Virus record (IMG/VR): IMGVR_UViG_3300048793_000013 | Location: 1 to 57,892 of that record | DNA from: a virus | Lineage: Duplodnaviria > Caudoviricetes | Direction: 5' to 3' (one strand) | DNA: 57,892 nt | Shown: positions 15,825-55,177 of the stretch, one piece after another | Layout of the letters: each line of letters opens with the position of its first letter | How positions within the stretch are numbered: the first letter of the stretch is position 1 | Translations under genes and position numbers: made by a program | The notes under the pieces: generated by a model | Told to the model about the DNA's origin: nothing | Databases searched by the model: none | The model's input: only the letters and a program-made list of their open reading frames with translations

Positions 15825-16900
15825 AGACCGTAACCTATAAATATCGGATCAAGGACCGCAGCGCGCGCAAGACGCTGGCGCGGCACGCTGTGGCGTGCAA
15901 TCAAGTCTGGAACTACTGCAATGCCTTTCAGCAGGACATTGAGCGCCGTTACCGTGCGGGCGCGCCTAAGCGCCGTTGGCCATCGGCGTTTGATCTGGCA
16001 AAACTCTGCAAAGGCACTGGCAAGGAACTCGGCATCCATCAGCAGACAGTCGGCACGATCTGCGATCAATTCGCCAAGAGCCGCGACAAGGCCAAGCACT
16101 CCCTCCGGTTTCGGTCTAGCTTTGGAGTTAACCGAGCACTCGGCTGGATACCGTTTCAAAAGCAGAGCCGACAGGTCGAAGGCAACTCAATTTGGTATCT
16201 CGGCAAGCAATATCGTTTCTTTGGCAGCAAACGTCGCCCATTGCCAGACAATGCCAAAGGCGGGGCTTTTGTTGAGGATGCACTTGGGCGCTGGTACGTC
16301 TGTTTCCATGTCGAGGTGGCAGAGTGCCAGCCACACGGCAACGGCATCATCGGCATTGATTTGGGGTTGCATACGCTGGTGACTACGAGCGCCGGTCAAA
16401 AGATTGAAGCCCCGCGTCACTATCGCGCCTTAGAAGGCAAGCTTGCTGTTGCGCAGCGCGCCCATAATAAGCAGTGCGTGCGGCGCATCCACGCCAAAAT
16501 CAAGAACAGCCGCAATGATTTTCTACATAAGCTTTCGACCACTCTGGCCGATCAGAACGCGTTCATCGCGGTCGGGGATGTCAACTCGAAACAGTTGGCC
16601 AAGACGCGGATGGCGAAATCCGTGTACGACGCCGGCTGGTCTACTTTCCGTTCCATGTTGAAATACAAGTCGGCCGGATACGTGGAAGTAGACGAAAGAT
16701 TCACGACCCAAACCTGCTCTCAGTGCGGTTGTTTGCCGCCTGAGAGGCCGCAAGGTATCGCAGGGCTTGGAATAAGGCAGTGGGATTGTTCCGAATGTGG
16801 TGCAAGCCACGACCGCGATGTGAATAGCGCTCTGAACATTCTCGCCATTGCCGCCCGCAGTGCTGCGGGTCCAGTTGTGGAAAGCCGGGTAGCCGCATGA
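15821..16900 (+). CDS. tnpB: TnpB RNA-guided endonuclease (IS200/IS605 OrfB family)
   Basis: TYKYRI, NQVWNY, GIDLG (RuvC-I), AVGDV with downstream VDERFTTQTCSQC, CSECG-HDRDVNSA (RuvC-III). Confidence 0.93.
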   Translation: MKTVTYKYRIKDRSARKTLARHAVACNQVWNYCNAFQQDIERRYRAGAPKRRWPSAFDLAKLCKGTGKELGIHQQTVGTICDQFAKSRDKAKHSLRFRSSFGVNRALGWIPFQKQSRQVEGNSIWYLGKQYRFFGSKRRPLPDNAKGGAFVEDALGRWYVCFHVEVAECQPHGNGIIGIDLGLHTLVTTSAGQKIEAPRHYRALEGKLAVAQRAHNKQCVRRIHAKIKNSRNDFLHKLSTTLADQNAFIAVGDVNSKQLAKTRMAKSVYDAGWSTFRSMLKYKSAGYVEVDERFTTQTCSQCGCLPPERPQGIAGLGIRQWDCSECGASHDRDVNSALNILAIAARSAAGPVVESRVAA

Positions 16901-28503: not shown

Positions 28504-28535
28504 AAGGCCGCACTCTCACGGGTGCGGTCTTTTTC
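28504..28535 (+). terminator. intrinsic terminator between convergent genes
   Basis: AAGGCCGCAC / GTGCGGTCTT followed by a T run. Confidence 0.7.
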
Positions 28536-31500
28536 TATGCTCCCAATGTTACTTCGAGGTTGCCCCGCTCATGTGGAATTGGTTTGACATCCGGATTCGA
28601 CGGCGCATTAGGCGCCGCTTTCTTTTCAACGCTCGCCAACGCGCTACGACACCAAGCATTCCACTGGGAAATGTCGTAATCGTGTTCGGTAAGCCATTGT
28701 CGTTCGGCGATATTTCCGTGGTCTTTATGGGCGGTTTTATATATGACAACTCGCTCCTTACCGGACGGCTCACGCCCGTACTTTGTCTTGAAGGCTGCAA
28801 GGGCTTCCTTCATCGCCTTGTACTCTGCCACCTCATGACGAAGCAGCGGTTGAACCGGATCAAGCGGCTTGCCGTTGTTCATAATCCGACGCGGCAGGGA
28901 CTTGTCATAGTAGAAGATATCTCCCGCCTTGGAAAGTTCTGAAATTACGTTCACGTCATATGTGTGGTTGATTACCGGCCAATCATGATCGCTGTCTTTC
29001 AATGGCTTGGTGGTGTCGCCATTGGCCAACCAGTCCTTGAAGTCATCAATGGACATTTCTACCATATGGCCGAGTCGCTTGCCACCCTTCCCGTCAGAGA
29101 ATCCTTTGAGGTAGACGGCTTTGGCTTGGGCAGCAGAGCCGAACGCCAGCATGCATTTGTGCTCATCATACTTGCCGGTCTCAGCGTTCAATTGATCGAT
29201 GACAAACACCTTGCGAGAGGCACGGTGCGGCCCGACGTAGCAATCAACACAATCCTGATCAGCACCGGTAGTCCGCTTGAGGTAGCCATACGCCGCCGGC
29301 ATTGTGACGGACCAACGCTTATCATCAGGGCCGATGCCTGATCGTTCATGCCCCTTGGCATTTTCAATTGCGATATCGAGCCCGTGCACATTGATATGTG
29401 CCTTGCGATAGTTGCCAGCCTCTTTCTGTGCCTCAGTTGGGTTGCTGTCAATGTAGTGTGCCATGACGCGGCCACCTCTGGCGCGTTCCTCGGGGCGGGC
29501 CTCTCTCAATCTGTCCTTTGCACTATCCGATAGATAACGCCATTTGACCTTACCTGGAATATTGCGGCGATCGATCTTGTCGAGATAGTGAAGGCGCCCG
29601 GCCGACGTAAGTTCATTGTCCCACCATGCCTCATCGTCAACTTTAGGTGCCGTGGCCTCTTGTGGCTTAGATTCTGATGTTTGAGCCGAGGGCGATGGCT
29701 TGGCGGCTGGCGCTTGCTCACCCAACGGCTTATACAGCCGTGCCCCACGCATTTCCTTTGGTTCTGTGATTGGCGCCACCGGTTCGGACTGCTTGGCCTT
29801 CACCTCAGCAGAGTGCACGTCGGGATGCTTTGGCGCCTTGATGGCCTTAGTAAACTCATCCAGTTTCTTGAGAGATTCCTGATATTCTTTTTCCTTCGGC
29901 CATGCGGTCGTTAGTGTCTTTTCCAACCGCTCTACACTCTTTCGCTCGTTCGCTAGTTCTTTTTCCAGCCGAGTTGGGTTATCCTTAATGTTACCGAGAA
30001 TGTTTTCAAACCGGCGTATCAACCCGGCCGGGTCTGTATGCTCGTTGATGACAGTTTGGTTTACAGCGGCATATCTGGAATTTCCTACAAGTGACGGCGT
30101 TGCCTCTAACGAAGTACCGTCTCCATCCCAGACATGACGCAATTGAATGTTCATGTCAAAACCTGACATGCGGCCGACATTTACGACCTTCGGGGTATAG
30201 AACTTCTGTCCACCACCAAAAGTCTTCAGCCTATCAAGGATTTCATCCCCGGCTGCCTTGCGCTCGGTTATCGTCTTGCCGTCGAGATCGACTGCAAATT
30301 TCTTGCCGGAGGTATCCGTAACGCGGCCGGCATCTTCTTTCGCCCCAGGTAGTGCAGTTTCGTATTGCTCAATCCGAGACTTGGCGGCATTGCCTTCGCC
30401 AAACGCCCGAGACTTGGTTTGGTCGTACACCCGCTTTTGCGACGTGAGCATGCGCACATTGCGGTCAAGTTCGGCATGTTCCAGGATACGAGGATCACCC
30501 GACGCTGCGGCTTTCATCTGCGCTGCATCAGGCAGCGGGTTGTCGATGTCCTCTGCCCAACGAGAACCCTTGGCACCGGACATAACCTGATTGAGGAACC
30601 CGGCTTTACGCTCTAGCGTCTGCCACATGAAAGCGTCAAATGACTTCTCAGTCACATAGCGGTAGATATCGACGTTCGAGTTTAAGTTGCCTTGGCGGAT
30701 AATGCGGCCGTCACGCTGTTCAACTTCTGCCGGCTTCCATGGTGCGTCAAGATGGTGCATCGCAATCAGACGATCCTGCACGTTCGTGCCGACGCCCATC
30801 TTTTCTGTGGAACCCATCAGAACGCGGATATCGCCGTCGCGCACTTTCTTGAACAGCTTTGCCTTCTTGATGTCGTCAGTAGCGTCGTGGATGAAGGCTA
30901 TTTCATGGGACGGAATGCCCTTGGCTACAAGACGCTGCTTGAGATCATCGTAGACGCTGAAGTCAGACGCGCCTTCCTCATCCCCCCCCTCTTCAGCCGA
31001 CTTTGCCTTACCCTTCCTGGCATTCTTTGGCGTCCCCATGTCGAGGAACACCATTTGAACCGTTCCAGGCTCTTTTCCGTTTTCCCATATCTTGTGGATG
31101 TTGCCGACAGCCTTAGCTACCTTGCCTTGAGGATTGAAGTCGAAATCAGCTAGTGTCCCAGGATTTGGCATATTCGATAAAGCATATTGGTCCGAGACAT
31201 TGTTGCCTATAAGCCTACCGTCAGTTGCCACCTTGCGGGCCGCAGTGCCAACGCTTGCAGCCATGGGTGCGCCCTTCTCAGGACGCACTCCCTTTAATAG
31301 TTCAAGTGACTTGATAACCCCTTGAACAAAGTTCTCCTCCGCAGACGACAGCTTGGCATTTACAATATGCGTCTTGGCTTCCGGCGCTGGCAACTTGAGC
31401 ATGGCCGCTGTCTTGGTATCGGCAATTTCGGAATAGAGAGAAATCAACTCCGGGATGTTGACGAACCTGGAGAACGATGCAACGTCCTTGAATGTGCGGC

Positions 31501-34500
31501 CATCTTGCGACAACTCGGTGTTAGTTGCTACCTTACCGAACGTGTTTGCCCATGCATCGAACGTTTCAAGCCCGCGCTCCTTCAGCTTGTCGTATTGAAG
31601 GTACCGCTGCATGGTCCACATTTCGGCCATGGTATTCGATATCGGCGTGCCGGTCGCAAATACAGCCGATCGGCCCGGACGGTTCTGTTCTAGGTACCGC
31701 GTCTTGAGGAACAAGTCTTCGGCGCGCTGTGATGCATTTTGGGCAAGACCCTTGACGCGATCAAACCGCGTTATGAAGTCGAGATTCTTGTACTTGTGGG
31801 CCTCGTCCACATACATGAAGTCAATGCCAGACTCCTCGAATGTCGTACCTTCGTCCTTGCGTTCCTCGTTCATCAACTTATCGAGTTTTTTTCTGAATGT
31901 CTTCTTTCTCTTTTCCATAGCCTTTACGGTTGGAGAGTTTTTGCCGCCTTCCTGTTCTTCGGCCTTTTGAACGCGCTCTAGTTCGTCCATCTGGTCCCTG
32001 ATGAACTTCTCGCGGAAATCACGTTGCATGTTGATGCGGCCGAATGCATCGTGCGTAAAAATAACGCCGTCCCAGTCGTTCGACGCTACCTTGGCAAGGA
32101 ACTTCTTACGGTTGTCCCTTGTCATCTCATCCTTTTCAGCGACAAGAATTTTGGCGTCCGGATATGCCTGAATAAATTCGCGGGAGAATTGCTCCAGCAT
32201 GTGGTTTGGAACCACATAGGCAGGCTTGTTGATAAGTCCGAGGCGCTTCTGTTCCATGCCGGAAGCGATCATTGATACAGTCTTACCACTACCGACAGCA
32301 TGCGCCATCAGAGTGTTGCCTTTCTGGATAATCCGCCAAACGACATCAAGCCGATGCTTGCGACCAGCAAAGTCAGGATTTAGCCCCGGCAACGTCAAGT
32401 GCGAACCGTCGTGATTTTCACCAACTAGGTCATTGTGGAGGCGGTTATAGATGCCTTCCAACAATTGAGAGCGTTCCGGGTCCTGCCATACCCAACCCTC
32501 GATACCCTTCTCAGGATCGCCCGTGAATGCTTCCTTAAGCAGTTCTGTCTTGACGCGGGCTTCTTCGGTCTTCGTTGTGTTTACCGCCCTGTGGCCGTCC
32601 CTATCCGGCGGATCGCGGACGGTAATAGGGCGCCCATTCATTGCCGATTCGGCAATCTCATCTACCCCAACCTCTTTTGTCCCGTACTTGGCACGGGCGT
32701 CGCCATCGAAGTACGATGCCTTAACCCGCCAATCGCCCGTGACTGGCACCTTGACAACCTTGATGCCACCCCCGCCAATCTCTTTGAGAAAATCCTCATA
32801 GACCGCCTCAGGCACCCACGGAGCCCCGAATTGGGCCGTAATTTCGGGACCAACCAGCGGCGTAGGCTGTACCTTTTCGAGCGCTGCAACATTACGCAAG
32901 TATGATGGATCATTGGCGGCGATCGACCGGGCATCCTCCAGTTTTTTTATGACGTTGCCAGACAGATACCTTGACGCTGTTTCCCATGCACGCCCGTCCG
33001 GATTTTGAAAGACCGTATCACCCAACGCGCTGATTGCAGCCTCGTGACTGTCTACACCAAGCGACTGCGCAATATGGTCTAGGTCAACGCCACCTTTATC
33101 ATTGAGAGATGCAGCGAGAGCATCAGACGGCCCGTTAATCTGCCGTTCCATCGGAGGCCGGATGACATCCTTAGTGAAAATGTCGGCCAGCTTGGTTTTT
33201 CCAGTCTCGGAATCATAGTTCTCAATGGAAGATACTTTCCATGAGTCGGGATCATTCCGAAATGCCTTGAAATTTGGATGACGCACAAGAACAACATTCT
33301 CGCCAGCCTTGTTGAGGCGCGAGGTGACGGTCTTCTCTTCTTTATTGATTGGGCCGTAGAGATCGACGAAATTATCATACTTCTTGCGCAAATCGGCGCG
33401 GAGAGCATCCTTGTCGCCCACGCCATCAATCTGCGCTCGCATCAGATCGTTGTAGGTATCTCTAATTCCGATGAGTTTCTTAACACGGGACGCCTCGATC
33501 GTCCCTATATCATGCTCATGTCCCTGCCCTTCGCGACGCTGATAGAGCTTCCCATCCTTCAAGAAGAACGCGCCATCCTTGATTCCTGCGCCAATTTCGT
33601 TGCTGTGAATCGGCGGTGGTGGCGGCGTATCGCGCACAAGCATCGCCCCTGCCGGCATATCATTTCGCGCTGCCTCAGCAATCTTTTGTTGCATGCCATC
33701 AGGGTCGCCAATCAGAACAGGCTCATTAGCGCGATGTTGTGTGCCCTGTAGACGCATTTCCCCAAGCATCATTTGTGGACGGTCAGAAAAATACTCATTG
33801 ATCTTTGTTGGCCCTTCGGGGGTCTGAATTGTTTTCAAGTCTGTCCATTTTACCCCATTGAAAGGCTGTTCACCCGGAACTTTCTTGCGCAGGAAAATAA
33901 TATCAGTCGTTACCTGTGTGCCTGCGTTCGACGCAAAGGCACCCTTGCTGCCACCGGGAAGACGGATAGCGCCCACAAGATCGGAAGTGTTTGCCAGTAG
34001 ACGACGTACATTGGCGTGCGTAGGTGCGTCCATTGTGTGAGATGACGTGATGAACGACACGATGCCACCAGGGCGCACCTTGTCGAGCGCCTTGATGAAA
34101 AAGAAGTTGTGAATCGAGTGTGAACCGTATGGCTTTTCCTCAACAGGGTAGTTGCCAAACGGCACGTTTGAAATTGCCAAATCGTAGTGGTTTGCCGGTC
34201 GCTTCAAGTCTTCGAAACCGTGAACATTGACCTCGGCGCCACCATAGAGCTTCTTGGCAATGCGGCCGGTGACGGAATCCAACTCAACGGCCGTCCATGC
34301 CGTCTTTGGCGTCCATTTATCGGGAATCAACCCAATAAAGTGCCCTATTCCGGCCGATGGCTCTATGGCCATGCCACCTTCGTATCCGAGATGATCCATG
34401 GCATCCCACATGCCGCGAACAACATCAGGCGACGTGTAGTGAGCATTCGGTGTCGAGGCGCGGGCAGAATCATACTCTTCGTCGGTCAACAGGGCCTTGA

Positions 34501-37500
34501 GTTGGCCACGCTCAGCTTCCCACTGTTTCCGGTAATCCCCCTTGAACATATCTTGAGCGTGAGCACCCCAGCCGGTGTACTTGACCAGCTTTGCCTTTTC
34601 CTCTGGGGTCGCATCGCGATTTTCGTCCTCAATCTGCTTGAGAACCTTGATGGCCTCTATGTTGCCGCGAACTTTCTGCTTTGCTCCGCCCTCGCCAACC
34701 AAATCCTCATCGGTAATGCGATAGTTCGACCGCGAGCGTTCGGCGATCTTCAGTTCTGCGTCTCTTCGTCCTCTGATGACGGCGGGAGGGGCTGGTTTAT
34801 CAGTTCCTCCCTCACCAGTTCGTCCACCTCCATCCGGCGGTTTTGTAACGCTCTCACTTTTTCCAGGTGTGGGAGTTTCTGGACCTCCGGGGTGTTGAGG
34901 TATTGGTGCATGAGGCTCGCCAACCTCTCCTCGGCTTCCTCCCCCACCGAAGAGAGATAGTTGTTCAGGTCGCCGGACTGGCGTAGCTGCGCCAGCATTT
35001 GCGGGTTGGCGTCCTCCAGGAACTTGCGGTGCATTTCCGCGTAATCCTTCGCCGAGTACATCCTTTGGCCCTCCGAATAAGTCTTCCTGGCCGGCAGCGG
35101 TACGCTTCTTGGCCTGCATCAGGGGCGGTTGCTCTTCTCCCGGCCGGGCAGATTCAGCCGCCCTACGCGCCCCCGCTTCGAGGATGGCTTGCTCGTTGCC
35201 GATTGGTAGCGGCTCCGTCCGTAGTGGACGGCCCCTAACGTCGCGAGAGGCTACTTCTCTTCGGAGTTGATCGGCTCCCTGTTTTTCTACCCGTTCCGGG
35301 CCACCGGCCTCATCGACACGCCTCATGACTTCTTTCAACATTCGGCCTTTGAGCGCCTTGTATTCCTCTTTGTTCCCTCTCAGGCTAGCCTTGTCCCCAC
35401 GAAACGCAGACAATTCGTCAGCCGTCAACACCTTTGGATAGAATCTTGCCCATCCGACATAGGAAGGTGTGCGTACCGCAGCTTCTACGTCAAAGGTAAT
35501 GCCGTCACGGGTAAACGGCCCCTCGACCAGGAACCCCTTAGAAGACCCGGACGGGTAATCATCAACAGGGCGTGTCTTGCGCAACTTAAGCCCCGTGACA
35601 GTCTCGACTTTGGGATAATCACGTTCCGGATTCTTGGTCAGAAACCGAATATCCATATCGATCGGTTCGTTGGGCCTAACGCGGGCATAGGTGCGCGATA
35701 CGAGGGAGCCGCCCATGACAACTTTGATGTCAGGGCCGAGCTTGTCTTGCCACTCACCGGCAACCTTGTTGGCGGTTGAAATAAGCTTGCCGGCGTCAGG
35801 TTCTTCCGGCCTGAGTTTTACTGGGACTTTTGGTCCAGCAGCACGGAAGATTTTGCCTTGATCGCCTTCTCCGCCCGCTGCTTCAAGTCCTTCGCGGCCT
35901 TCGCCAACCCCGGATCGCCGTATTTGGTCGCCACCCGCTGGAACGCCCTCGCCATTACCAGGGCCATTGCGGTCGGGAACCTCTTCTCCATAGCCTTCCC
36001 ATCCTTTGTCACGAGCGATTTTCTGGATATCTCGCCGTTCAACCGGTGCCAGCCCTAGATCAAGTCCCGGTTCGGCCGTAACCTTGCGTGCCTCATCGGC
36101 ATAGAACCCAAGTGCATCACTAATCCTCTTGCTGCCAAGTGCCCGACGATTCCCCCGCATGTCAAGCTCAGGAGCATAGAAAGCCCGCATGAAGCCCTCG
36201 ACGGTATCAGGTATCTTATTGAAAGCATCTGACTGTGCCAAGTAGGTGTCGAGTTTTGTCCCCTCCCCACGGATTTTTGCCGTCCGCTTGACCGCTTCCA
36301 TGAGGTCCGGGGTGGCATCCATATCCGGCCGGACACGTCCTGCCTCGACATCAGCCCTCAATCTGGCCCATTTTGGTGCCACGGTTGCCAACGCATTGGA
36401 GATCGAGCGGATTTCATCATCCGTCGATTCAGCAATACGTGCTATCACCCCGACATCGCCGTATGCCTTGGCAAAGACGGCATTGCGCAACCGGGTAGCG
36501 CCTTCAGCCGATAACTGCCCAGATGCGTCCATAAGAGCACCTTGTTCGGCCTGGGGGAGTTCCTGGACGAAGCGGCGAACAAAATCACGGTTTGCCCCAA
36601 TATCATTTGGATTGTGCAGGAGATTGAGCGTCTTATCATCGATCAGCTTGGCATCGCCACGCGCTCGTTCGGTGGCCGACATGGCAAGCGTAGACGCCTG
36701 ATTAGCCCCGGCCGTGAAGGCTTGCCGCTCTTGTGGCGACATCGGCGTAATGCGCTGACGCACCAATACCGGATTGCGATACTGGGAAACGTCAACACCC
36801 TGCCGGGCGAGCCATTCACGGTATTCTTGAACCTTAGCCCCACCTTCGCCATAGACATTGCGAAGCGCTAATACTCGGCCGTTGCCACTCTCGACCATGC
36901 CGTCTGGGCCAACGATAGGCGCTCCGCGATCGGCTTCAGCGGAGTAGCCTAGACGCTCAGGATCGAGATTGGATGCAATATCGCGAACTTGGGCTTGGCT
37001 GGCTGCACGGCTGCGCTGGCGCGGCTGTAGGGCCTTGTCGTATCCGGCGTCTTGGGAGGTCTTGAGGCTGGAAGCCTCGACCACAACCGGCGCTACATCA
37101 ATGGCAGTACCGTCAGCGGTCGATACACGGTGCGGGCGTAGGTTGGAAGGCTCGGCGCCGATCAGCCCTTGGGCGGCGGCGAAGGGGGATGGTTCTTGGC
37201 CTTGACCATTGCCGCCAGCTTCGCTGTCGCCTCCTCGAAGTGCCGGCTGGACATCTCGTCCATTTCGGCTGGCGTCGGCGATTTCCGCACTGATGTGGTC
37301 GGCAAGTTGGCCATTTCCCTCAATTATCCTCGTTGGTCTCTCGGAAGTGTCAGCGTCTAGGAAGTCATTCGCCTCACCTCTCAATGTATAAGCGGTCTGA
37401 CGCGGTTTGTCACCAACTTCCTTGATGTAATTTGGGTCTACAAGCCGTCCGGTATCAAGGAAACGCTTGATGTTGCGGCGGCCGGAAATCTCAGGCGTTG

Positions 37501-40411
37501 CAGCAACATGGGCGATATCAACCGTATAGCCTGCCGCCTTCAGATTTTCGATTGACTTGCGTATTGTTTCGGCGTTGTGGCCCACCTTTGGCAGGATAAG
37601 ATTTGCACCTTCTATGCCGAGGTTGAAGAACACATCTTTGGCGAGTTCGGAGCTTTCCTCATGAACGGCTTGCGTTCCTACTCCGTTCTCGTATTCAGGG
37701 ATTACTTTCTTGGCTTCATCAGCGTCAACCAAAGCTGCTTTGTATCGACGGGCCAGTGGTTCGGAGATGGACGATTTGCCAGAGGCTGGAGGGCCGAGGA
37801 CAATGATGGCGTGACGGCCATTTTCGACCGGCCCCTTTGCAAAATCTTTAGCCTGTTCGGTCAACCGTTGAACGGCATCATCCCAGCCGTGAACTTTTTC
37901 GCCATTAAAGTTATAAACACGGGCATCGCGCCAGTCCGGATCGGCGAATTGCTCGGGCGAGCCAGTAGGAACACGGCTTCTATCGATTGCTACTTGACCC
38001 TGAACGTATGGGTGTTGTTCCAGTTCATCGAGCGGTGCCCCGCTGTCCAATGCGGCCTGTAGGCTTTCCCGATTGCCAGTCTGCGGTAGAGCGCCGGTCG
38101 GCCCGCGTGTCGGTATTGGAGGTGGCGTCGTTCCATTGTCTTGGTACAGACTACGAAGCGCAGCATCGCCTTCCGGCCCCTGCATCGTCCAAATACGAGC
38201 GGCCTCACCACGGATGCGATCATAAAGAGCTTTCTGCCCATCTTTTCGCTTTGCCAATTCCCGGCCGGCAAGTTTTAGTGCTCCTTTGGCAACGGTTCTC
38301 CACGGATGAGAAATTAGACCATGAGCGGTGCCGACAATGCCAGGACCAGTCTCAATGAGCGATCCAAGCGTATCCTCTTCGGGCGGCAACCAATGCTTGC
38401 TGTAGAGCCTGCGGGCTTGCGTCTCGCTATTGTCAACCAGCCGGTTCATGGAATTGTGCATACGGCGTTCGGCTTCTAGAGCCTTGAAGTAGCCATTTGC
38501 CTTTTCCTCACCAAGCAGTGCAGCGAGTTTTGCCCTGTTTGCGTCCGTCAATGCCTTCCCGAGCATTGTGAGTTCGCCGCCACGAGCACGATCGAGAACA
38601 CGGTTGAAATGCTTGGCCACACCTTGAATGGCAGCTTGCTTTTCTGGTTCGCCCATCCTTTCCAAAAGGTGAGGTATTTCAGATTCATCAAGCGTCGCGG
38701 ACAACAGCTTATCGCGGCCGAATTCATACGCCTTCATCACGCGCGTAATAGGTGCCCATTTCTCTCTTGCATCCCTCCATACACCACGAACGGCAGGATC
38801 AGGGTGGTTGTCGATCTCGTTTAGAAGGGCGTTTTTGAGCGTAAGCAGATGGCGGGCATTGTTCTTGTTACCGCTCCTAAATGCAGCGTCAATCTTGTCG
38901 TCAAGAGCTTCTTTTGCCAACTGGAACGCGCGTGCTGTTGGGATACGGTTTTCTTTGCCAAGTTCATCCTCAAAGCCCTCATCTATGGGCTTTCCCATGT
39001 TCTTAAGCTGACGATTAGCCTTGGCAGTCGCCGCCTTCATATCGGGGCGGGTGAGAATTTCCTTGAGTGCCTCAGTTGGTGCAATGCGTGTATCTTCAAA
39101 CGTCTTCCAAAAAGGAGCCGACTCATTCTTTCTGGCTTGCTTTTGCATACGAAGCCAGCCGGCCTCATTGACTTGCGGCCCAAGGTACTCGCTATTGATG
39201 TTCTGAATACGCTCTTTCTCTTCGGCACGGCGCTGTCTGTAGGATTGTCTGATTTCGGTGCTTGGCTGGCCTGGAGTGACCGCTATGCCGGCAGCATGAC
39301 GTTGCGTATCCTCATTCAGATCGGCATTGAATTCATGCCGAGACTTGTTCTCCGTAGCGGCCTCAAGTTCGTCGAGGCTACCAAAGTTATCCCTCAGAAT
39401 GTCGCCAACCATCTTCTTGGTTTCTGGCAACATTTCATCCAGCGCGCTCTGTGCCCGAGCAGCACCAACGCTATCATGGACGGGATCAGCTTCACCAAAA
39501 TGAGGGACTTCCGGCGATACAAGCCTTACGTTAGGATCAACCTTGTCGCGCCCGAAGGCAAATGGCGGAACCTCTGCCTCTCCCGGCTGTGCCGCCGCAA
39601 TCTTTTGTTCGTCCAGCAACTGTGAGAAATCTTGTGCGGGAGGCTGCGGCGCTTCCGGCTGTGCCGCAGCCTTTGCCTTATCTCCGCGTATTGATTGTTC
39701 ATGCGCTAGTCTTGCCTCAACCGCGTTCCTTGATAAATTGCCTGCCGCACTAGCGATTGGATGACCGGCCAACATACCGGCGAACCCTGCCACCTCTTCA
39801 TAGCCTGTCCCTTCAGCGGCTTTTTCAGCCGCAAATGCGCCAGTTGCAGGGGCAACGGCTCGCGTTAATAATCTTGTGGCGATGCTGCCGGGACCACCCA
39901 CGACAAATGGTAGGAATCCGCCAAGTTCCTGTAGATATTCATCGCTAGCAACAGGGGTACCGTCAGGATTGCGGCGCACTTCTGGGAGAGGCCCGGAGAC
40001 GTTTTGCTCAAACGGCTTAATGAAATCTTCCGGCTTGGGAAGCGATCTAATGCCGGGTGGTAGTGCACCATGCTCTTGTTGCAGTCTTTGATATTCGGCA
40101 AATTGTTCTGGCGATAGGGCTTTACCTGCGCCCCAATCCATAGCCCGGCCGGCAGCATCAGTCAGATATCCAGGTATTCCAGGAAGGCCAACGGTACCCT
40201 TGACAAGACCAGAACCAAGCTGCTTGGCCTTTTCGTAAGCCTCATTACTGGCAGCGTTAACCACATCGCCCACACCGAAGGCATTGCCATAGGTGCGATC
40301 TGGTTGAGGTTGTGGCTTGTCAGCCAAGAATGCATCAGGGTCAAACCCGCCACCTCCGCCGCCAGATGGCGACGTGTCATTCAGGAAGGCGTCGGGATCG
40401 AAATCAGCCAC
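28535..40411 (-). CDS. darB: giant DarB-like polyvalent virion protein (zeta-toxin kinase, ddrB-like ParB, nucleotidyltransferase, N6-adenine methyltransferase, SNF2 helicase, pyrophosphatase-like)
   Basis: GPPASGKS/VDAD; QPRQR..GAPIV..SGNGR; GGSL..DMD; EPSAGIG/SNVPF; AVGSGKT/DEAH/ATGTP/QRDGRIIRQG; EAGNYRK..YGY..GAD.D.VD..DEHK. Confidence 0.9.
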   Translation of the reverse strand: MADFDPDAFLNDTSPSGGGGGGFDPDAFLADKPQPQPDRTYGNAFGVGDVVNAASNEAYEKAKQLGSGLVKGTVGLPGIPGYLTDAAGRAMDWGAGKALSPEQFAEYQRLQQEHGALPPGIRSLPKPEDFIKPFEQNVSGPLPEVRRNPDGTPVASDEYLQELGGFLPFVVGGPGSIATRLLTRAVAPATGAFAAEKAAEGTGYEEVAGFAGMLAGHPIASAAGNLSRNAVEARLAHEQSIRGDKAKAAAQPEAPQPPAQDFSQLLDEQKIAAAQPGEAEVPPFAFGRDKVDPNVRLVSPEVPHFGEADPVHDSVGAARAQSALDEMLPETKKMVGDILRDNFGSLDELEAATENKSRHEFNADLNEDTQRHAAGIAVTPGQPSTEIRQSYRQRRAEEKERIQNINSEYLGPQVNEAGWLRMQKQARKNESAPFWKTFEDTRIAPTEALKEILTRPDMKAATAKANRQLKNMGKPIDEGFEDELGKENRIPTARAFQLAKEALDDKIDAAFRSGNKNNARHLLTLKNALLNEIDNHPDPAVRGVWRDAREKWAPITRVMKAYEFGRDKLLSATLDESEIPHLLERMGEPEKQAAIQGVAKHFNRVLDRARGGELTMLGKALTDANRAKLAALLGEEKANGYFKALEAERRMHNSMNRLVDNSETQARRLYSKHWLPPEEDTLGSLIETGPGIVGTAHGLISHPWRTVAKGALKLAGRELAKRKDGQKALYDRIRGEAARIWTMQGPEGDAALRSLYQDNGTTPPPIPTRGPTGALPQTGNRESLQAALDSGAPLDELEQHPYVQGQVAIDRSRVPTGSPEQFADPDWRDARVYNFNGEKVHGWDDAVQRLTEQAKDFAKGPVENGRHAIIVLGPPASGKSSISEPLARRYKAALVDADEAKKVIPEYENGVGTQAVHEESSELAKDVFFNLGIEGANLILPKVGHNAETIRKSIENLKAAGYTVDIAHVAATPEISGRRNIKRFLDTGRLVDPNYIKEVGDKPRQTAYTLRGEANDFLDADTSERPTRIIEGNGQLADHISAEIADASRNGRDVQPALRGGDSEAGGNGQGQEPSPFAAAQGLIGAEPSNLRPHRVSTADGTAIDVAPVVVEASSLKTSQDAGYDKALQPRQRSRAASQAQVRDIASNLDPERLGYSAEADRGAPIVGPDGMVESGNGRVLALRNVYGEGGAKVQEYREWLARQGVDVSQYRNPVLVRQRITPMSPQERQAFTAGANQASTLAMSATERARGDAKLIDDKTLNLLHNPNDIGANRDFVRRFVQELPQAEQGALMDASGQLSAEGATRLRNAVFAKAYGDVGVIARIAESTDDEIRSISNALATVAPKWARLRADVEAGRVRPDMDATPDLMEAVKRTAKIRGEGTKLDTYLAQSDAFNKIPDTVEGFMRAFYAPELDMRGNRRALGSKRISDALGFYADEARKVTAEPGLDLGLAPVERRDIQKIARDKGWEGYGEEVPDRNGPGNGEGVPAGGDQIRRSGVGEGREGLEAAGGEGDQGKIFRAAGPKVPVKLRPEEPDAGKLISTANKVAGEWQDKLGPDIKVVMGGSLVSRTYARVRPNEPIDMDIRFLTKNPERDYPKVETVTGLKLRKTRPVDDYPSGSSKGFLVEGPFTRDGITFDVEAAVRTPSYVGWARFYPKVLTADELSAFRGDKASLRGNKEEYKALKGRMLKEVMRRVDEAGGPERVEKQGADQLRREVASRDVRGRPLRTEPLPIGNEQAILEAGARRAAESARPGEEQPPLMQAKKRTAAGQEDLFGGPKDVLGEGLRGNAPQVPGGRQPANAGAATPVRRPEQLSLFGGGGSRGEVGEPHAPIPQHPGGPETPTPGKSESVTKPPDGGGRTGEGGTDKPAPPAVIRGRRDAELKIAERSRSNYRITDEDLVGEGGAKQKVRGNIEAIKVLKQIEDENRDATPEEKAKLVKYTGWGAHAQDMFKGDYRKQWEAERGQLKALLTDEEYDSARASTPNAHYTSPDVVRGMWDAMDHLGYEGGMAIEPSAGIGHFIGLIPDKWTPKTAWTAVELDSVTGRIAKKLYGGAEVNVHGFEDLKRPANHYDLAISNVPFGNYPVEEKPYGSHSIHNFFFIKALDKVRPGGIVSFITSSHTMDAPTHANVRRLLANTSDLVGAIRLPGGSKGAFASNAGTQVTTDIIFLRKKVPGEQPFNGVKWTDLKTIQTPEGPTKINEYFSDRPQMMLGEMRLQGTQHRANEPVLIGDPDGMQQKIAEAARNDMPAGAMLVRDTPPPPPIHSNEIGAGIKDGAFFLKDGKLYQRREGQGHEHDIGTIEASRVKKLIGIRDTYNDLMRAQIDGVGDKDALRADLRKKYDNFVDLYGPINKEEKTVTSRLNKAGENVVLVRHPNFKAFRNDPDSWKVSSIENYDSETGKTKLADIFTKDVIRPPMERQINGPSDALAASLNDKGGVDLDHIAQSLGVDSHEAAISALGDTVFQNPDGRAWETASRYLSGNVIKKLEDARSIAANDPSYLRNVAALEKVQPTPLVGPEITAQFGAPWVPEAVYEDFLKEIGGGGIKVVKVPVTGDWRVKASYFDGDARAKYGTKEVGVDEIAESAMNGRPITVRDPPDRDGHRAVNTTKTEEARVKTELLKEAFTGDPEKGIEGWVWQDPERSQLLEGIYNRLHNDLVGENHDGSHLTLPGLNPDFAGRKHRLDVVWRIIQKGNTLMAHAVGSGKTVSMIASGMEQKRLGLINKPAYVVPNHMLEQFSREFIQAYPDAKILVAEKDEMTRDNRKKFLAKVASNDWDGVIFTHDAFGRINMQRDFREKFIRDQMDELERVQKAEEQEGGKNSPTVKAMEKRKKTFRKKLDKLMNEERKDEGTTFEESGIDFMYVDEAHKYKNLDFITRFDRVKGLAQNASQRAEDLFLKTRYLEQNRPGRSAVFATGTPISNTMAEMWTMQRYLQYDKLKERGLETFDAWANTFGKVATNTELSQDGRTFKDVASFSRFVNIPELISLYSEIADTKTAAMLKLPAPEAKTHIVNAKLSSAEENFVQGVIKSLELLKGVRPEKGAPMAASVGTAARKVATDGRLIGNNVSDQYALSNMPNPGTLADFDFNPQGKVAKAVGNIHKIWENGKEPGTVQMVFLDMGTPKNARKGKAKSAEEGGDEEGASDFSVYDDLKQRLVAKGIPSHEIAFIHDATDDIKKAKLFKKVRDGDIRVLMGSTEKMGVGTNVQDRLIAMHHLDAPWKPAEVEQRDGRIIRQGNLNSNVDIYRYVTEKSFDAFMWQTLERKAGFLNQVMSGAKGSRWAEDIDNPLPDAAQMKAAASGDPRILEHAELDRNVRMLTSQKRVYDQTKSRAFGEGNAAKSRIEQYETALPGAKEDAGRVTDTSGKKFAVDLDGKTITERKAAGDEILDRLKTFGGGQKFYTPKVVNVGRMSGFDMNIQLRHVWDGDGTSLEATPSLVGNSRYAAVNQTVINEHTDPAGLIRRFENILGNIKDNPTRLEKELANERKSVERLEKTLTTAWPKEKEYQESLKKLDEFTKAIKAPKHPDVHSAEVKAKQSEPVAPITEPKEMRGARLYKPLGEQAPAAKPSPSAQTSESKPQEATAPKVDDEAWWDNELTSAGRLHYLDKIDRRNIPGKVKWRYLSDSAKDRLREARPEERARGGRVMAHYIDSNPTEAQKEAGNYRKAHINVHGLDIAIENAKGHERSGIGPDDKRWSVTMPAAYGYLKRTTGADQDCVDCYVGPHRASRKVFVIDQLNAETGKYDEHKCMLAFGSAAQAKAVYLKGFSDGKGGKRLGHMVEMSIDDFKDWLANGDTTKPLKDSDHDWPVINHTYDVNVISELSKAGDIFYYDKSLPRRIMNNGKPLDPVQPLLRHEVAEYKAMKEALAAFKTKYGREPSGKERVVIYKTAHKDHGNIAERQWLTEHDYDISQWNAWCRSALASVEKKAAPNAPSNPDVKPIPHERGNLEVTLGA
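34750..35061 (-). CDS. nested TnpV-like protein in the +1 frame of the giant gene
   Basis: YAEMHRKFLEDANPQMLAQLRQSGDLNNYL..VGEEAEERL...VRALQNRRMEVDELVREELI follows the TnpV pattern; GGAGG SD 8 nt upstream. Confidence 0.7.
   Translation of the reverse strand: MYSAKDYAEMHRKFLEDANPQMLAQLRQSGDLNNYLSSVGEEAEERLASLMHQYLNTPEVQKLPHLEKVRALQNRRMEVDELVREELINQPLPPSSEDEETQN
35818..35991 (-). CDS. nested 57-aa helical protein in the +1 frame of the giant gene
   Basis: MEKRFPTAMALVMARAFQRVATKYGDPGLAKAAKDLKQRAEKAIKAK...; AAGGATGGGAAGG upstream. Confidence 0.5.
   Translation of the reverse strand: MEKRFPTAMALVMARAFQRVATKYGDPGLAKAAKDLKQRAEKAIKAKSSVLLDQKSQ
37162..37314 (-). CDS. nested 50-aa protein in the +1 frame, directly after the zeta-toxin domain
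   Basis: MANLPTTSVRKSPTPAEMDEMSSRHFEEATAKLAAMVKAKNHPPSPPPKG; GAGGATAATTGAGGGAA upstream. Confidence 0.45.
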   Translation of the reverse strand: MANLPTTSVRKSPTPAEMDEMSSRHFEEATAKLAAMVKAKNHPPSPPPKG

Positions 40412-53553: not shown

Positions 53554-54239
53554 CGATAGAAACCAGAAAGTCCAGGAGTTATATATAAAGCAACATTCTC
53601 AGTATTTTGTTTCATTGCTAAAGCAAACGCCTCATCTCCGTCAAGTTTTCTTTGAGCCTCCAATGCGGGAGCATAATGTCTGGCAAGTCGATGAGCCAAG
53701 CCGGCGACATAGGCATCAAGAAATAGATATTGCAAATCAGCATTGCCGCCCTGTGCAGGATTTGCGTCATCTTGTTGAATGTAAGACCAAAAGCTACATT
53801 CATATATCGCGTTATTATCTGGTACCGGCCAAAATGTTATAGTGGGGTTTACCGTTCTTAAAAAAAAGAACGATGTAGGAAATCCCTGCTCTGTTGGGTC
53901 TGCAAGAGATGCTAGATCAGTGCGAGAAAATGGCAGCAAAAGTCTGTTTGATCCTCCACCAGGACCATTAGGACTTATATATAGATCAAGTATCATTACT
54001 GTATTAGATGCGATGGGATACGTTGCTGTTCCAGCCACCATCGGAAAGCTTGTAAGAATCTGTTTGAAAAGTAGCACACCCTCATTGACAAACTTTACCT
54101 GAAGAAGGTTAGCTTCCTCCCTCGCATCACTCATATGCTGCGGAGTCAACTCTGTACGTTTCACACCAATACGACTAAACGCGGTCAAAAATAACGAACC
54201 TAAAATTGGATTATAGGAGGTAGTACCAGATAGGCTCAT
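53550..54239 (-). CDS. head-tail connector/adaptor protein
   Basis: SGTT..AFSRIG..GTATY..GFPT.FF..FWPVPD..GLAHRLA. Confidence 0.7.
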   Translation of the reverse strand: MSLSGTTSYNPILGSLFLTAFSRIGVKRTELTPQHMSDAREEANLLQVKFVNEGVLLFKQILTSFPMVAGTATYPIASNTVMILDLYISPNGPGGGSNRLLLPFSRTDLASLADPTEQGFPTSFFFLRTVNPTITFWPVPDNNAIYECSFWSYIQQDDANPAQGGNADLQYLFLDAYVAGLAHRLARHYAPALEAQRKLDGDEAFALAMKQNTENVALYITPGLSGFYR

Positions 54240-55120
54240 ACAAACTCAAATCGACGGCCTTTTGCCATCTTTGCTTGACCGTGCACAACTCTACCAACAG
54301 GACTAATAGCAATTCCGTAATGCTGGGCCGCAGACTTAATGCTTGGAAAGACTAACCCATCGTCAATGCAGCGAACTTGACGGCCTTGCTTTGCGTTCAT
54401 TGCTTTGAACCGGATGGACCTCCGCTCAATCATTTCAGGGGACAGCGGTCGAGGTGTTTTGCCGTTTTTTCGGCCGATCCTTACATTTTCGCAAACTTCA
54501 GGTGGCCTCTTTTCGCCACGGCTATGACCTATGTAATTACCTCTTTCACGTCTGGTAGAAACCATCTTTTCAATGCTGTCTATTGAACGCTTTTTACCGG
54601 CCCATGGCCCAGGCTTTCCAATGTGGCTGGCAGAAAGACGCCTAAGCGTTTCCTGTGAAGGCTTGTAGCCGGTCATGCCTTCGCCACCGGCCGTCAGATT
54701 GTATTCAGGACATATGCATGCAATTAGCTCTTGTTCCGCAAACAAAGCGCGCTCATAATCTCGACATATGCCAAAAATCAGAAATTCAAATGCTTCCTTG
54801 CCATATTTTCTTATGGCTCGCGTAAACAGACCGTAGCCTCCCTGTTTAGCTGTTTGGAAGTGATGTTTCTTCCTTTTTTCAAGTCCTGTGCTTGTCACAC
54901 CGACATAAAGCTTATTGTTAATGGTATTTATGGCGACATAGACAATGCACTTGGGAGCTACGATCTTCGAATTTGCCTCATGAACTTGTCGAAGGTGTCT
55001 TATGACAAGCGGCCGATTGCGTCTGATACTCTCGTATGTCCTATTCTCGAATCCAGACCCTCTTAAGCGCTCTGGAACCACATACGCGAACCCCTTGATT
55101 GGCACTGATTTGGCAGTCAT
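54236..55120 (-). CDS. GIY-YIG homing endonuclease with NUMOD3/NUMOD1-like repeats
   Basis: IVYVAINTINNKLYVGVT, AIRKYG, YNLTAGGEG, SQETLRRLS, FPSIKSAA. Confidence 0.88.
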   Translation of the reverse strand: MTAKSVPIKGFAYVVPERLRGSGFENRTYESIRRNRPLVIRHLRQVHEANSKIVAPKCIVYVAINTINNKLYVGVTSTGLEKRKKHHFQTAKQGGYGLFTRAIRKYGKEAFEFLIFGICRDYERALFAEQELIACICPEYNLTAGGEGMTGYKPSQETLRRLSASHIGKPGPWAGKKRSIDSIEKMVSTRRERGNYIGHSRGEKRPPEVCENVRIGRKNGKTPRPLSPEMIERRSIRFKAMNAKQGRQVRCIDDGLVFPSIKSAAQHYGIAISPVGRVVHGQAKMAKGRRFEFV

Positions 55121-55177
55121 CCCAGCCCCCTCTTGCTGAGACTCCATACCACAAAAAGAGGCCTCGTACATCCTACC

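What the first reader, a model, noticed from the sequence alone, without database searches (positions are those of the whole stretch)
34750..35061. TnpV-like protein nested immediately before the DarB methylase domain
Seen: a 103-aa +1-frame ORF with a GGAGG SD 8 nt before the ATG, ending just upstream of where the methylase domain begins. By eye it follows the TnpV pattern (Y..M...L....P.....L..SG.L..YL..V.E.A.ER.......VR...N.R....E.V.EELI). TnpV is an uncharacterised protein of conjugative elements. Inference: it is a dedicated partner of the methylase-helicase, retained by overprinting. Standard gene callers would miss it.
Basis: partly seen in the sequence, partly recalled or inferred. Interest (0 to 1): 0.8.

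Follow-up and report, generated by a model that had tools for sequence, protein, structure and literature searches.

The report
Hidden tnpV-like gene inside giant phage gene
A complete small gene of the TnpV family is written one base out of step inside the flexible-linker part of a giant phage anti-restriction gene, an arrangement kept in almost every related phage examined yet absent from the annotations checked.

Summary
Observation confirmed. Window 34750-35061 (minus strand) is a 103-codon ORF in the +1 frame of a 3958-codon phage polyvalent-protein gene. It has GGAGG 8 nt before its ATG. It stops 11 nt before the DarB-like methylase module. It matches Pfam TnpV (E 3.9e-13, 49.8 bits, cut-off 27).

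It is a real dual-coding segment, not chance. Of 41 viral loci fetched through the methylase module, 40 carry a TnpV-like sequence upstream. All 48 profile hits over six frames lie in the +1 frame. Among 36 distinct copies, 35 start with ATG, 31 have a Shine-Dalgarno-like 4-mer and 35 keep the giant frame open.

Amino-acid identity is higher in the TnpV frame in 28 of 28 pairs. Third-position T is depleted, and without that depletion the giant frame would stay open with probability only 0.0004-0.19.

Seven of 8 cultured phages checked have it (for example Bcep22 and Itty13). P1 does not. None of the 7 records annotates it.

Best reading: a separately translated five-helix protein. A partner role with the methylase-helicase is only weakly supported (complex score 0.58, best control 0.00).

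This scan noted the same layout before in Firmicute conjugative elements (25 notes). I found no paper describing it.

The parts
34750..35061 (-). Nested tnpV-like gene, 103 codons plus TGA, in the +1 frame of the giant gene. Predicted five-helix protein.
   Evidence: ORF list and translation. PF14198 E 3.9e-13. phrog_24764, unknown function, E 1.6e-9. AF2 model with mean pLDDT 91.7 and helices 4-18, 20-29, 32-55, 58-61, 65-88.
35070..35074 (-). Shine-Dalgarno GGAGG, 8 nt before the nested ATG.
   Evidence: Read from the sequence. GGAGG or AGGAG stands at -16..-4 of none of the 248 other ATGs in the giant ORF.
34750..35061 (-). The same bases read in frame 0: a Gly/Pro/Arg/Ala-rich linker, giant residues 1784-1888.
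   Evidence: Translation. GC by giant codon position in this stretch is 0.80/0.64/0.30, against 0.64/0.44/0.55 for the whole gene.
28535..40411 (-). Giant polyvalent-protein gene, 3958 codons.
   Evidence: ORF list. Pfam domains lie along its whole length in one frame.
32489..34738 (-). DarB-like methylase module, starting at RSRSNYRIT. This is the 750-residue stretch used in the searches.
   Evidence: phrog_10089 'DarB-like antirestriction' E 7.2e-211. Weak Eco57I methylase match at giant residues 2075-2145. tblastn match to P1 darB, 33% identity, E 2e-15.
30689..32326 (-). SNF2/SF2 helicase part, giant residues 2696-3241.
   Evidence: ResIII, SNF2-rel_dom and Helicase_C matches.
37382..37813 (-). 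Zeta-toxin-like P-loop kinase domain, residues 867-1010.
   Evidence: PF06414 E 2.4e-16.
36752..37114 (-). DdrB-like ParB domain, residues 1100-1220.
   Evidence: PF18763 E 5.6e-35.
29027..29434 (-). InPase domain, residues 3660-3795.
   Evidence: PF18823 E 1.1e-48.

Best explanation
The 312 bases code for two proteins. In frame 0 they give a disordered-looking Gly/Pro/Arg-rich linker. That linker joins the N-terminal effector domains (zeta-toxin-like kinase, DdrB-ParB and others) to the DarB-like methylase-SNF2 helicase dyad of a phage polyvalent anti-restriction protein. In frame +1 they give a 103-residue, five-helix TnpV-family protein. Ribosomes start this protein at its own GGAGG-8 nt-ATG on the same mRNA and stop just before the methylase module.

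What comparison shows: both frames are maintained. Selection keeps the TnpV amino-acid sequence, its start codon and its SD. It also keeps the giant frame free of stops.

What is inferred: tnpV is the older reading. It was engulfed when an upstream ORF became joined to the methylase ORF by reading across it. The nesting now locks tnpV to the methylase-helicase module so that they travel and are expressed together.

What is inferred more weakly (about 0.35-0.4): the small protein binds or assists the methylase-helicase module, as an accessory subunit, chaperone or regulator.
For: Family: PF14198 E 3.9e-13. A phmmer search of 1.84 billion representatives found 114 relatives with E <= 0.001, all 44-326 aa long.

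Conserved nesting: the methylase N-terminus fetched 41 viral loci. Forty of them have a TnpV-like hit within 1500 nt upstream. All 48 hits over six frames are in the +1 frame. The second profile was built from 16 of these loci, so those 16 match by construction. The 18 loci of the other class were not used to build it and score E 1e-29 to 1e-36.

Divergent copies are homologous to the window's type: hhalign probability 94.3%, E 9.8e-8. Four of 16 divergent copies hit PF14198 at E <= 0.01, against 0 of 8 control +1 ORFs.

Among 36 non-duplicate copies, 35 start with ATG (one with GTG), 31 have an SD-like 4-mer and 35 keep the giant frame open.

SD enrichment: 19 of 23 chosen starts have the 4-mer against 152 of 1944 background ATGs. 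Ten of 23 have GGAGG or AGGAG against 13 of 1944.

Selection on the TnpV frame: summed nucleotide differences by TnpV codon position 1/2/3 are 456/409/566 over 15 pairs and 909/800/1062 over 28 pairs. The giant's third position is therefore the least variable. Amino-acid identity is higher in the TnpV frame in 28 of 28 pairs, one of them nearly tied.

Selection on the giant frame: given the TnpV protein and the giant's codon usage, the giant frame would stay open with probability 0.0004 in the window, 0.0004-0.064 in 6 loci, and a median of 0.011 and maximum of 0.19 in 34 loci. T at TnpV third positions is 2.9% in the window against 24.8% in the giant. It is lower than the flank in 34 of 34 loci.

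Not an in-frame domain: none of the 120 listed giant relatives carries PF14198 in its own frame.

Partner role: near-universal linkage, plus a complex prediction of methylase module (750 aa) with TnpV-like. The verdict was weak support. Runs scored 0.06, 0.58 and 0.60, median 0.58; the best of 3 controls was 0.00. The mark was reached by 58 of 80 solved complexes and 2 of 110 mismatched pairs. At 0.60 or under it was reached by only 7 of those 80 and by both mismatches that passed. The runs agree in at least 0% of contacts and the partner's pLDDT is at least 71. My own alignments were used.
Against: There is no expression or protein evidence for the nested product. All support is comparative.

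The methylase-helicase can exist without it. P1 darB starts at the methylase with its own promoter, and no TnpV-like hit lies upstream. Locus L053 has none either.

Classical TnpV genes sit beside a large serine recombinase and a Mob_Pre gene, with no methylase. The one plasmid hit I opened is a free-standing ORF placed right after a 709-codon ORF, which I did not identify. So TnpV need not act on the methylase.

The complex score is weak. By the tool's own calibration such a pass is more often wrong than right unless the pairing was likely beforehand, and one of the three runs scored 0.06.

In 18 loci a further frame-0 domain of about 170-200 residues lies between the nested stop and the methylase anchor. 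Adjacency to the methylase is therefore not strict.

In phage PBC5 the deposited sequence puts the upstream domains in frame with the TnpV-like part, and the record annotates it that way (orf33). Some database relatives (P0124, P0142, P0135) also have in-frame N-terminal extensions.

The position-3 excess is modest because the sequences are near saturation.
Confidence: 0.8

Rival explanations
1. The nested gene is real and translated, but its product acts independently of the methylase-helicase. It could be a general mobile-element factor, as classical TnpV beside serine recombinases may be. Its place inside the giant gene would then be a historical accident that hitch-hikes with the module.
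For: Classical TnpV sits next to a Resolvase+Recombinase protein and a Mob_Pre protein, with no methylase. The plasmid hit I opened is likewise a free-standing tnpV ORF, not nested. P1 DarB lacks it. The complex prediction gave only weak support. In 18 loci another domain separates the nested ORF from the methylase.
Against: Forty of 41 methylase-anchored viral loci keep it upstream of the same module, across two divergent subfamilies. That is hard to explain by hitch-hiking alone. Complex score 0.58 against 0.00 for the best of 3 controls (weak, with the counts given under the best explanation).
Confidence: 0.35
2. The TnpV-like part is made by programmed +1 ribosomal frameshifting. This would give a shortened isoform, N-terminal domains plus a TnpV end, that stops before the methylase, rather than a free small protein.
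For: The PBC5 record has exactly this fusion in frame. Relatives P0124, P0142 and P0135 have in-frame N-terminal extensions containing a Q.DLF-like motif. SD-like elements can stimulate frameshifting (recalled).
Against: A frameshift needs no start codon, yet 35 of 36 copies have ATG, and one GTG, at the start of the homologous region, with an SD at initiation spacing. In 10 of 35 loci a +1-frame stop lies 10 codons or fewer before that ATG, in one case only 1 codon. I saw no shared slippery motif in the printed contexts, but I ran no formal motif search. PBC5 is a single old record and may carry a one-base error.
Confidence: 0.07
3. It is a fossil: the remains of a tnpV gene swallowed by a gene fusion and no longer translated.
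For: No expression data exist. Truncated TnpV-like remnants do occur elsewhere (L006, L013/L014, L016).
Against: The ORF is complete in all 36 distinct copies although they diverge to about 35-60% identity. The script flagged 34 as intact; the other two, L018 and L022, are complete ORFs. Start codon and SD are kept. Amino-acid identity is higher in the TnpV frame in 28 of 28 pairs.
Confidence: 0.05
4. It is an artefact. Either the TnpV-like part is really an in-frame domain put out of frame by assembly errors, or only frame 0 matters and the TnpV likeness is incidental.
For: The window is a metagenome-derived virus record. Frame 0 carries a QLSLFGG motif that looks like a clamp-binding motif (the clamp-motif consensus is recalled).
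Against: The same +1 offset is seen in 40 loci from independent assemblies and in complete genomes of 7 cultured phages. None of 120 giant relatives has PF14198 in frame. Codon-position composition and variability fit the TnpV frame. The QLSLF motif is absent from the second subfamily's frame-0 reading.
Confidence: 0.02

Closest known systems
TnpV of Tn4451/Tn4453-type mobilisable transposons (Pfam PF14198)
   Same: Same protein family by profile and similar size. Function is untested in both. A passage of PMC3158075 says TnpV of Tn4451 was 'postulated to be involved in excision' from likeness to lambda Xis.
   Different: Classical tnpV is a free-standing gene beside a large serine recombinase and a Mob_Pre gene. 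Here the gene lies wholly inside another gene, in a phage, with no recombinase beside it. The window's copy belongs to a divergent subfamily with consensus ..YLSSVGEQA...
Embedded Rz/Rz1 spanin genes of phages
   Same: A small gene lies wholly inside a larger one, on the same strand, in the +1 frame, with its own start. The embedded class is described for phage JC1 in a passage of PMC9144972. The +1 detail for lambda is recalled.
   Different: Rz and Rz1 are two subunits of one complex with known function. Here the host reading is only a linker, the nested gene is the older family, and the functional link is unproven.
comS inside srfAB of Bacillus subtilis (recalled; named in earlier scan note e1-4884741)
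   Same: A small out-of-frame gene inside a giant multi-domain gene, translated from its own start.
   Different: comS is short, about 46 codons by recall, and lineage-restricted. This nested gene has about 70-120 codons and is shared by many phage lineages.
DarB of phage P1, and the 'polyvalent proteins' of Iyer et al. 2017 (PMC5512222)
   Same: The host gene has the DarB-like methylase plus SF2 helicase dyad. It also has phage-type domains (DdrB-ParB, InPase) that the paper's passages name as phage-only.
   Different: P1 darB begins at the methylase and has no nested TnpV-like ORF. The paper's text contains 'TnpV', 'overlapping' and 'frameshift' zero times.
PG0816 of Porphyromonas gingivalis (PDB 2apl)
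   Same: Best structural match of the model: Z 6.9, rmsd 2.0 A, 63 residues aligned. Separately, one of 16 divergent nested ORFs hit PF08989 (DUF1896) at E 0.008. That PG0816 belongs to DUF1896 is my recollection, not from a call.
   Different: The Z score is within the range the tool calls common for helical proteins. Profile searches of PDB sequences with A1 and A4 did not return 2apl. This is a lead only.

Membership tests
Pfam PF14198 TnpV | Profile match above the curated gathering score | tested here: met
   49.8 bits against a cut-off of 27, E 3.9e-13. A whole-record search gave 50.3 bits.
Pfam PF14198 TnpV | Small protein of about 100-130 residues covering most of the profile | tested here: met
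   103 aa. Residues 6-88 match profile positions 25-111 of 111. Classical members examined are 112 and 134 aa.
Pfam PF14198 TnpV | Tn4451-type context: next to a large serine recombinase and a Mob gene | tested here: not met
   The gene lies inside the giant gene, whose neighbours are a DNA-ejection protein and virion proteins. No Resolvase or Recombinase hit appeared among the 10 large window ORFs scanned; not every ORF was scanned.
Pfam PF14198 TnpV | Role in excision (postulated only) | not testable with these tools
   Passage of PMC3158075.
Embedded same-strand overlapping gene pair (Rz/Rz1 type) | Small ORF wholly inside a larger ORF, same strand, other frame | tested here: met
Embedded same-strand overlapping gene pair (Rz/Rz1 type) | Own translation start signals | tested here: met
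   GGAGG-8 nt-ATG in the window. ATG in 35 of 36 copies and SD-like 4-mer in 31 of 36. Enrichment over background.
Embedded same-strand overlapping gene pair (Rz/Rz1 type) | Both frames kept by selection | tested here: met
   TnpV frame. Giant frame.
Embedded same-strand overlapping gene pair (Rz/Rz1 type) | Both products made in the cell | not testable with these tools
   No RNA holder was listed. No proteomic data were at hand.
Phage-type polyvalent protein with DarB-like dyad (Iyer et al. 2017) | Several effector domains in one polypeptide, including methylase fused to an SF2 helicase | tested here: met
   Zeta_toxin, ddrB-ParB, methylase, SNF2/ResIII/Helicase_C and InPase. phrog_10089 DarB-like, E 7.2e-211.
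Phage-type polyvalent protein with DarB-like dyad (Iyer et al. 2017) | Gene lies among virion or late genes | tested here: met
   Upstream gene hits a DNA-ejection protein family. ORF 49696-51960 hits a virion structural protein family.
Phage-type polyvalent protein with DarB-like dyad (Iyer et al. 2017) | Protein is packed in the virion and delivered with the DNA | not testable with these tools
   By analogy only. The JC1 homologue gp69 was found in virions by mass spectrometry (passage of PMC9144972).
Programmed ribosomal frameshift product | Conserved slippery site and no need for an own start codon | tested here: inconclusive
   I ran no formal slippery-site search. The conserved ATG and SD and stops just upstream argue against it. 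The in-frame fusion in PBC5 keeps it open.

The most novel reading that the evidence does not exclude
The TnpV-like protein is a hidden, near-universal third component of the DarB-type methylase-helicase anti-restriction module of phages and, going by earlier scan notes that I did not test, of conjugative elements. It would bind the module as an accessory subunit or regulator. Writing it into the module's own upstream linker would be the device that keeps the two co-inherited and co-expressed through the domain shuffling typical of polyvalent proteins.
Probability: 0.3. Interest if true: 0.85.

Novelty: new variant of a known kind. Interest (0 to 1): 0.72.

Why it matters
Long same-strand overlapping genes that are demonstrably old are rare in bacteria and their viruses. 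Here is one of about 70-120 codons shared by dozens of divergent phages. It has clean signatures of selection on both frames and sits in cultured phages in which it can be tested.

It adds an unannotated protein to a widespread anti-restriction module. It gives the uncharacterised TnpV family its first strong genomic association outside serine-recombinase transposons. It also shows how a gene can survive being swallowed by a domain fusion.

In practice, gene callers and the database records checked omit it. Proteomic searches of these phages would therefore have missed it.

Tried and rejected
NCBIfam: no family for the 103-aa product, even at E 10.

tblastn of the product against plasmids found 2 records, both Subdoligranulum, at 33% identity. 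The one I opened has a free-standing tnpV ORF right after a 709-codon ORF and is not nested. Against phages there was no match at E 1e-3. Nested copies in cultured phages only appeared with profiles.

Fold searches of the model: Foldseek against PDB and BFVD gave nothing at E <= 0.001. The wide VIA search gave at best Z 6.9, which is ordinary for helical proteins. PDB sequence profiles gave nothing relevant. The protein atlas returned only TnpV clusters at 0.87-0.89.

The promoter and terminator scan of 34000-36000 found nothing on the minus strand near the ORF and nothing above the shuffles. I assume expression from the giant gene's mRNA.

Sequencing runs: no RNA holder was listed. I did not lay reads.

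Idea rejected: the frame-0 QLSLFGG motif as a functional clamp-binding site. It mirrors the TnpV motif YLSSVGE, occurs in 15 of 120 giant relatives, and is absent from the second subfamily's frame-0 reading. It is most simply a by-product.

Idea rejected: termination-reinitiation to make a free methylase-helicase. By eye I saw no conserved frame-0 start codon after the nested stop in the printed translations. In 18 loci the stop lies more than 500 nt before the methylase.

Idea rejected: an acidic DNA mimic. The window's copy has net charge -9, but the family median is -4.5 and the second subfamily is near neutral.

My first reading of the 41 loci wrongly put about 18 of them down as lacking the ORF, because I had printed only 450 nt upstream. 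The wider scan corrected this.

Literature. TnpV plus 'polyvalent proteins': the 2017 paper has no mention of TnpV. TnpV plus overlapping gene, nested gene or overprinting, with at least 2 of 4 terms: 244 papers, and the 10 listed all have no TnpV. TnpV plus 'overlapping': 4 papers. TnpV plus 'helicase': 2 papers. I read the TnpV passages of three of these (PMC3158075, PMC7785942, PMC11913394), and none describes nesting. PMC12634702 I saw only as a listing.
Full report
THE OBSERVATION

On the minus strand of the window an ORF runs from ATG 35061-35059 to TGA 34752-34750 and has 103 codons. It lies inside a 3958-codon ORF, 28535-40411, on the same strand. It is offset by +1 because 40411-35061 = 5350 = 3x1783+1. 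GGAGG at 35074-35070 stands 8 nt before the ATG. The nested stop lies 11 nt before the codon that opens the motif RSRSNYRIT, at 34738. That motif is the conserved start of the methylase module. The product matches Pfam TnpV with E 3.9e-13, 49.8 bits, against a cut-off of 27. ORF length alone would not be remarkable, since the giant gene holds other same-strand off-frame ORFs of 98 and 116 codons.

THE HOST GENE AND THE RECORD

The window is a whole IMG/VR virus record of 57,892 bases, linear, estimated 67% complete.

The giant protein carries these matches in one frame:
- Zeta_toxin, residues 867-1010
- ddrB-ParB, residues 1100-1220
- a weak Eco57I methylase match, residues 2075-2145
- ResIII, SNF2 and Helicase_C, residues 2696-3241
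- InPase, residues 3660-3795

The 750 residues from the anchor match phrog_10089, 'DarB-like antirestriction', at E 7.2e-211. The gene just upstream hits a DNA-ejection protein family, and 49696-51960 hits a virion structural protein family. This is a phage-type polyvalent protein in the sense of Iyer et al. 2017. Passages of that paper name DdrB-ParB and InPase as phage-only domains and describe the methylase-helicase dyad with P1 DarB as archetype (PMC5512222).

IS THE NESTED ORF SHARED BY RELATIVES?

A phmmer search of 1.84 billion representatives found 114 relatives with E <= 0.001, all 44-326 residues long. None of the 120 listed giant relatives has PF14198 in its own frame.

Scans with a 7-sequence alignment gave 16 loci. 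In six of them (L001-L005, L015) the TnpV-like ORF lies inside a giant same-strand ORF, always at the same +1 offset. Four are classical Firmicute tnpV genes beside a Resolvase+Recombinase protein and, in two cases, a Mob_Pre protein. The remaining six are short contigs or truncated copies.

I then fetched loci through the methylase N-terminus, which does not depend on TnpV. This gave 41 viral loci. With two profiles, searched over six frames of up to 1500 nt upstream, 40 of 41 have a hit. All 48 hits are in the +1 frame of the plus strand. The second profile was built from 16 of these loci, so those 16 match by construction. The 18 loci of the other class were not used to build it, and they score E 1e-29 to 1e-36.

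The window's subfamily has consensus ..YAxEHRxFLxENNP..SYLSSVGEQA... The commoner one reads MNLxNWIxxxRxHWKExxPxxY..DEAW.MVRE.YL. The two are homologous: hhalign probability 94.3%, E 9.8e-8. Four of 16 divergent copies reach PF14198 at E <= 0.01, against 0 of 8 control +1 ORFs.

The one locus without a hit, L053, is one where the methylase opens its own gene.

SIGNS OF TRANSLATION FROM AN OWN START

Among 36 non-duplicate copies:
- 35 have ATG and one has GTG at the head of the homologous region.
- 31 have an SD-like 4-mer at -16..-4.
- 35 keep the giant frame open.
- The script flagged 34 ORFs as intact. The other two (L018, L022) are complete ORFs. The flag failed because the profile alignment ran into the stop.

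In the set of 23 starts chosen earlier, 19 have the 4-mer against 152 of 1944 background ATGs. Ten have GGAGG or AGGAG against 13 of 1944. In the window, none of the 248 other ATGs in the giant ORF has such a 5-mer. In 10 of 35 loci a +1-frame stop lies within 10 codons before the start codon, in one case 1 codon. That leaves little room for entry by frameshifting.

SELECTION ON BOTH FRAMES

Summed nucleotide differences by TnpV codon position 1/2/3 are 456/409/566 for six copies and 909/800/1062 for eight copies. The giant frame's third position equals TnpV position 2 and is the least variable. That is the opposite of what coding in frame 0 alone would give. Amino-acid identity is higher in the TnpV frame in 28 of 28 pairs, one nearly tied.

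In the window, GC by codon position is 0.64/0.30/0.79 in the TnpV frame. The same bases in the giant frame give 0.80/0.64/0.30, against 0.64/0.44/0.55 for the giant overall.

The giant frame is nevertheless protected. Given each TnpV protein and the giant's codon usage, the giant frame would stay open with these probabilities:
- 0.0004 in the window
- 0.0004-0.064 in six loci
- a median of 0.011 and a maximum of 0.19 in 34 loci

The cause is visible. T at TnpV third positions is 2.9% in the window against 24.8% in the giant. It is lower than the flank in 34 of 34 loci.

The conserved frame-0 motifs QLSLFGG and VTKPP sit at fixed distances before the methylase anchor. They occur in 15 and 23 of 120 giant relatives respectively. 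They are the frame-0 shadow of the TnpV motifs YLSSVGE and ALQNRR.

CULTURED PHAGES AND ANNOTATION

Of 115 phage records with a DarB-like match I opened 8. A +1-frame TnpV-like ORF is present in seven: Atu_ph08, PBC5, Mwe-JY07, Itty13, SopranoGao, Bcep22 and Gamede, with E from 4.6e-37 to 1.5e-4. P1 has none; its darB starts at the methylase with its own promoter.

None of the seven records annotates it as a gene of its own. In PBC5 the deposited sequence puts the upstream domains in the TnpV frame, so that orf33 ends at the TnpV stop and the giant frame is broken. This is either a real variant or an old one-base error.

The window's exact 103-aa sequence is not in the 15-billion-protein collection, whereas the giant protein is. 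Three relatives that were called as proteins (P0122, P0124, P0128) sit on contigs of 908-2564 bases.

WHAT THE PROTEIN MAY DO

The AF2 model is confident (mean pLDDT 91.7, pTM 0.77) and all-helical, with five helices.

Foldseek found nothing at E <= 0.001 in PDB or BFVD. The best wide match is PG0816, PDB 2apl: Z 6.9, rmsd 2.0 A, 63 residues aligned. That is within the range ordinary for helical proteins. One of 16 divergent copies hit PF08989 (DUF1896) at E 0.008. That PG0816 is a DUF1896 protein is my recollection. This is a lead only.

The invariant or nearly invariant columns of the 36-sequence alignment are G40, A43, P20, L36, P64, L72 and E81. None is a typical catalytic residue. That fits a binding or structural role, which is an inference.

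A complex prediction of the methylase module (750 residues, 37-row alignment) with the TnpV-like protein (36-row alignment) gave weak support:
- Runs scored 0.06, 0.58 and 0.60, with a median of 0.58.
- The best of 3 controls scored 0.00.
- The mark was reached by 58 of 80 solved complexes and 2 of 110 mismatched pairs.
- At 0.60 or under it was reached by only 7 of those 80 and by both mismatches that passed.
- The runs agree in at least 0% of contacts, and the partner's pLDDT is at least 71.

Against an obligate partnership stand P1 DarB and L053, which lack the ORF, and classical TnpV, which lives beside serine recombinases.

I therefore hold the nested, separately translated gene at about 0.8. 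I hold the partner role at about 0.35-0.4. An independent function is about equally likely.

ORIGIN

The TnpV frame belongs to a family that also exists as free genes. It also carries the normal coding signature. The frame-0 reading is a low-complexity linker. The simplest history is that an upstream ORF became joined to the methylase ORF by reading across tnpV in the -1 frame relative to it. After that, tnpV was kept. This is inference; a tree-based test was not run.

WHAT IS KNOWN

My searches of the paper library found no description of a nested tnpV. Supplements were closed.

The scan's own notebook holds 25 earlier notes of a tnpV nested in the +1 frame of polyvalent methylase-helicase genes of Firmicute conjugative elements. 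I did not test those loci. What this window adds:
- the same layout in phage-type polyvalent proteins of GC-rich environmental and cultured phages
- a second, commoner subfamily of the nested protein
- the near-universality of the ORF (40 of 41 loci) when the methylase is preceded by other domains
- its absence when the methylase opens the gene

VERDICT

It is a real and old dual-coding segment that the annotations checked omit. Its function is open. Interest 0.72.

Noticed in passing
window 14239-15402 (+): Adenylosuccinate-synthetase homologue that hits phrog_1211, '2-aminooxy adenylosuccinate synthetase', at E 2.5e-55, and Pfam Adenylsucc_synt at E 2.7e-41. By recall this is PurZ-like, so the phage may replace adenine with 2-aminoadenine. 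If so, what its N6-adenine methylase module acts on is an open question.
   Followed up: partly
window 15821-16900 (+): TnpB-like ORF with OrfB_IS605 plus Cas12f1-like TNB domains, inside the phage record.
   Followed up: no
window 54236-55171 (-): GIY-YIG plus NUMOD3 ORF, a homing-endonuclease type, among the virion genes.
   Followed up: no
window about 34957-34977 (-), giant residues 1817-1823: Frame 0 reads QLSLFGG, which resembles the beta-clamp-binding consensus (recalled), exactly opposite the TnpV motif YLSSVGE. It is present in 15 of 120 giant relatives but not in the second subfamily. Probably a by-product.
   Followed up: partly
L036 / L061 (Sinorhizobium phage PBC5, AF448724) 1-1000: The deposited sequence has the upstream domains in frame with the TnpV-like part. 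orf33 ends at the TnpV stop and the giant frame is broken. This is either a natural fused variant or a one-base error.
   Followed up: partly
L023, L024, L026, L029, L032-L034, L036, L037, L039-L043, L055-L057: In these 18 loci a frame-0 domain of about 170-200 residues (LERRQTGDAIGAL..VGPIDLVWG..) lies between the nested ORF and the methylase anchor. The nested stop is therefore 509-596 nt upstream of the anchor.
   Followed up: no
proteins P0124 and P0128 (contigs of 1713 and 2564 bases): These TnpV-like relatives carry a shared extra segment (..ARA.RRVA.KYGD..LAKAAKEL..). It lies before the TnpV part in one and after it in the other. P0124 also has QGDLF in frame before the TnpV part. Their context is unknown.
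   Followed up: no
L006 9944-10219; L013 2281-2490; L014 3257-3466; L016 97-474: N-terminally truncated TnpV-like ORFs outside any giant gene. L016 switches midway to the giant-frame-like reading (..GVAKPPAGGGG..). They look like decayed remnants of the nested arrangement.
   Followed up: partly
L063 (Pseudomonas phage Itty13, NC_070969): The RefSeq table lists the CDS over the DarB-like match on the strand opposite to the tblastn match. This is either a mis-annotation or an orientation quirk of the table.
   Followed up: no
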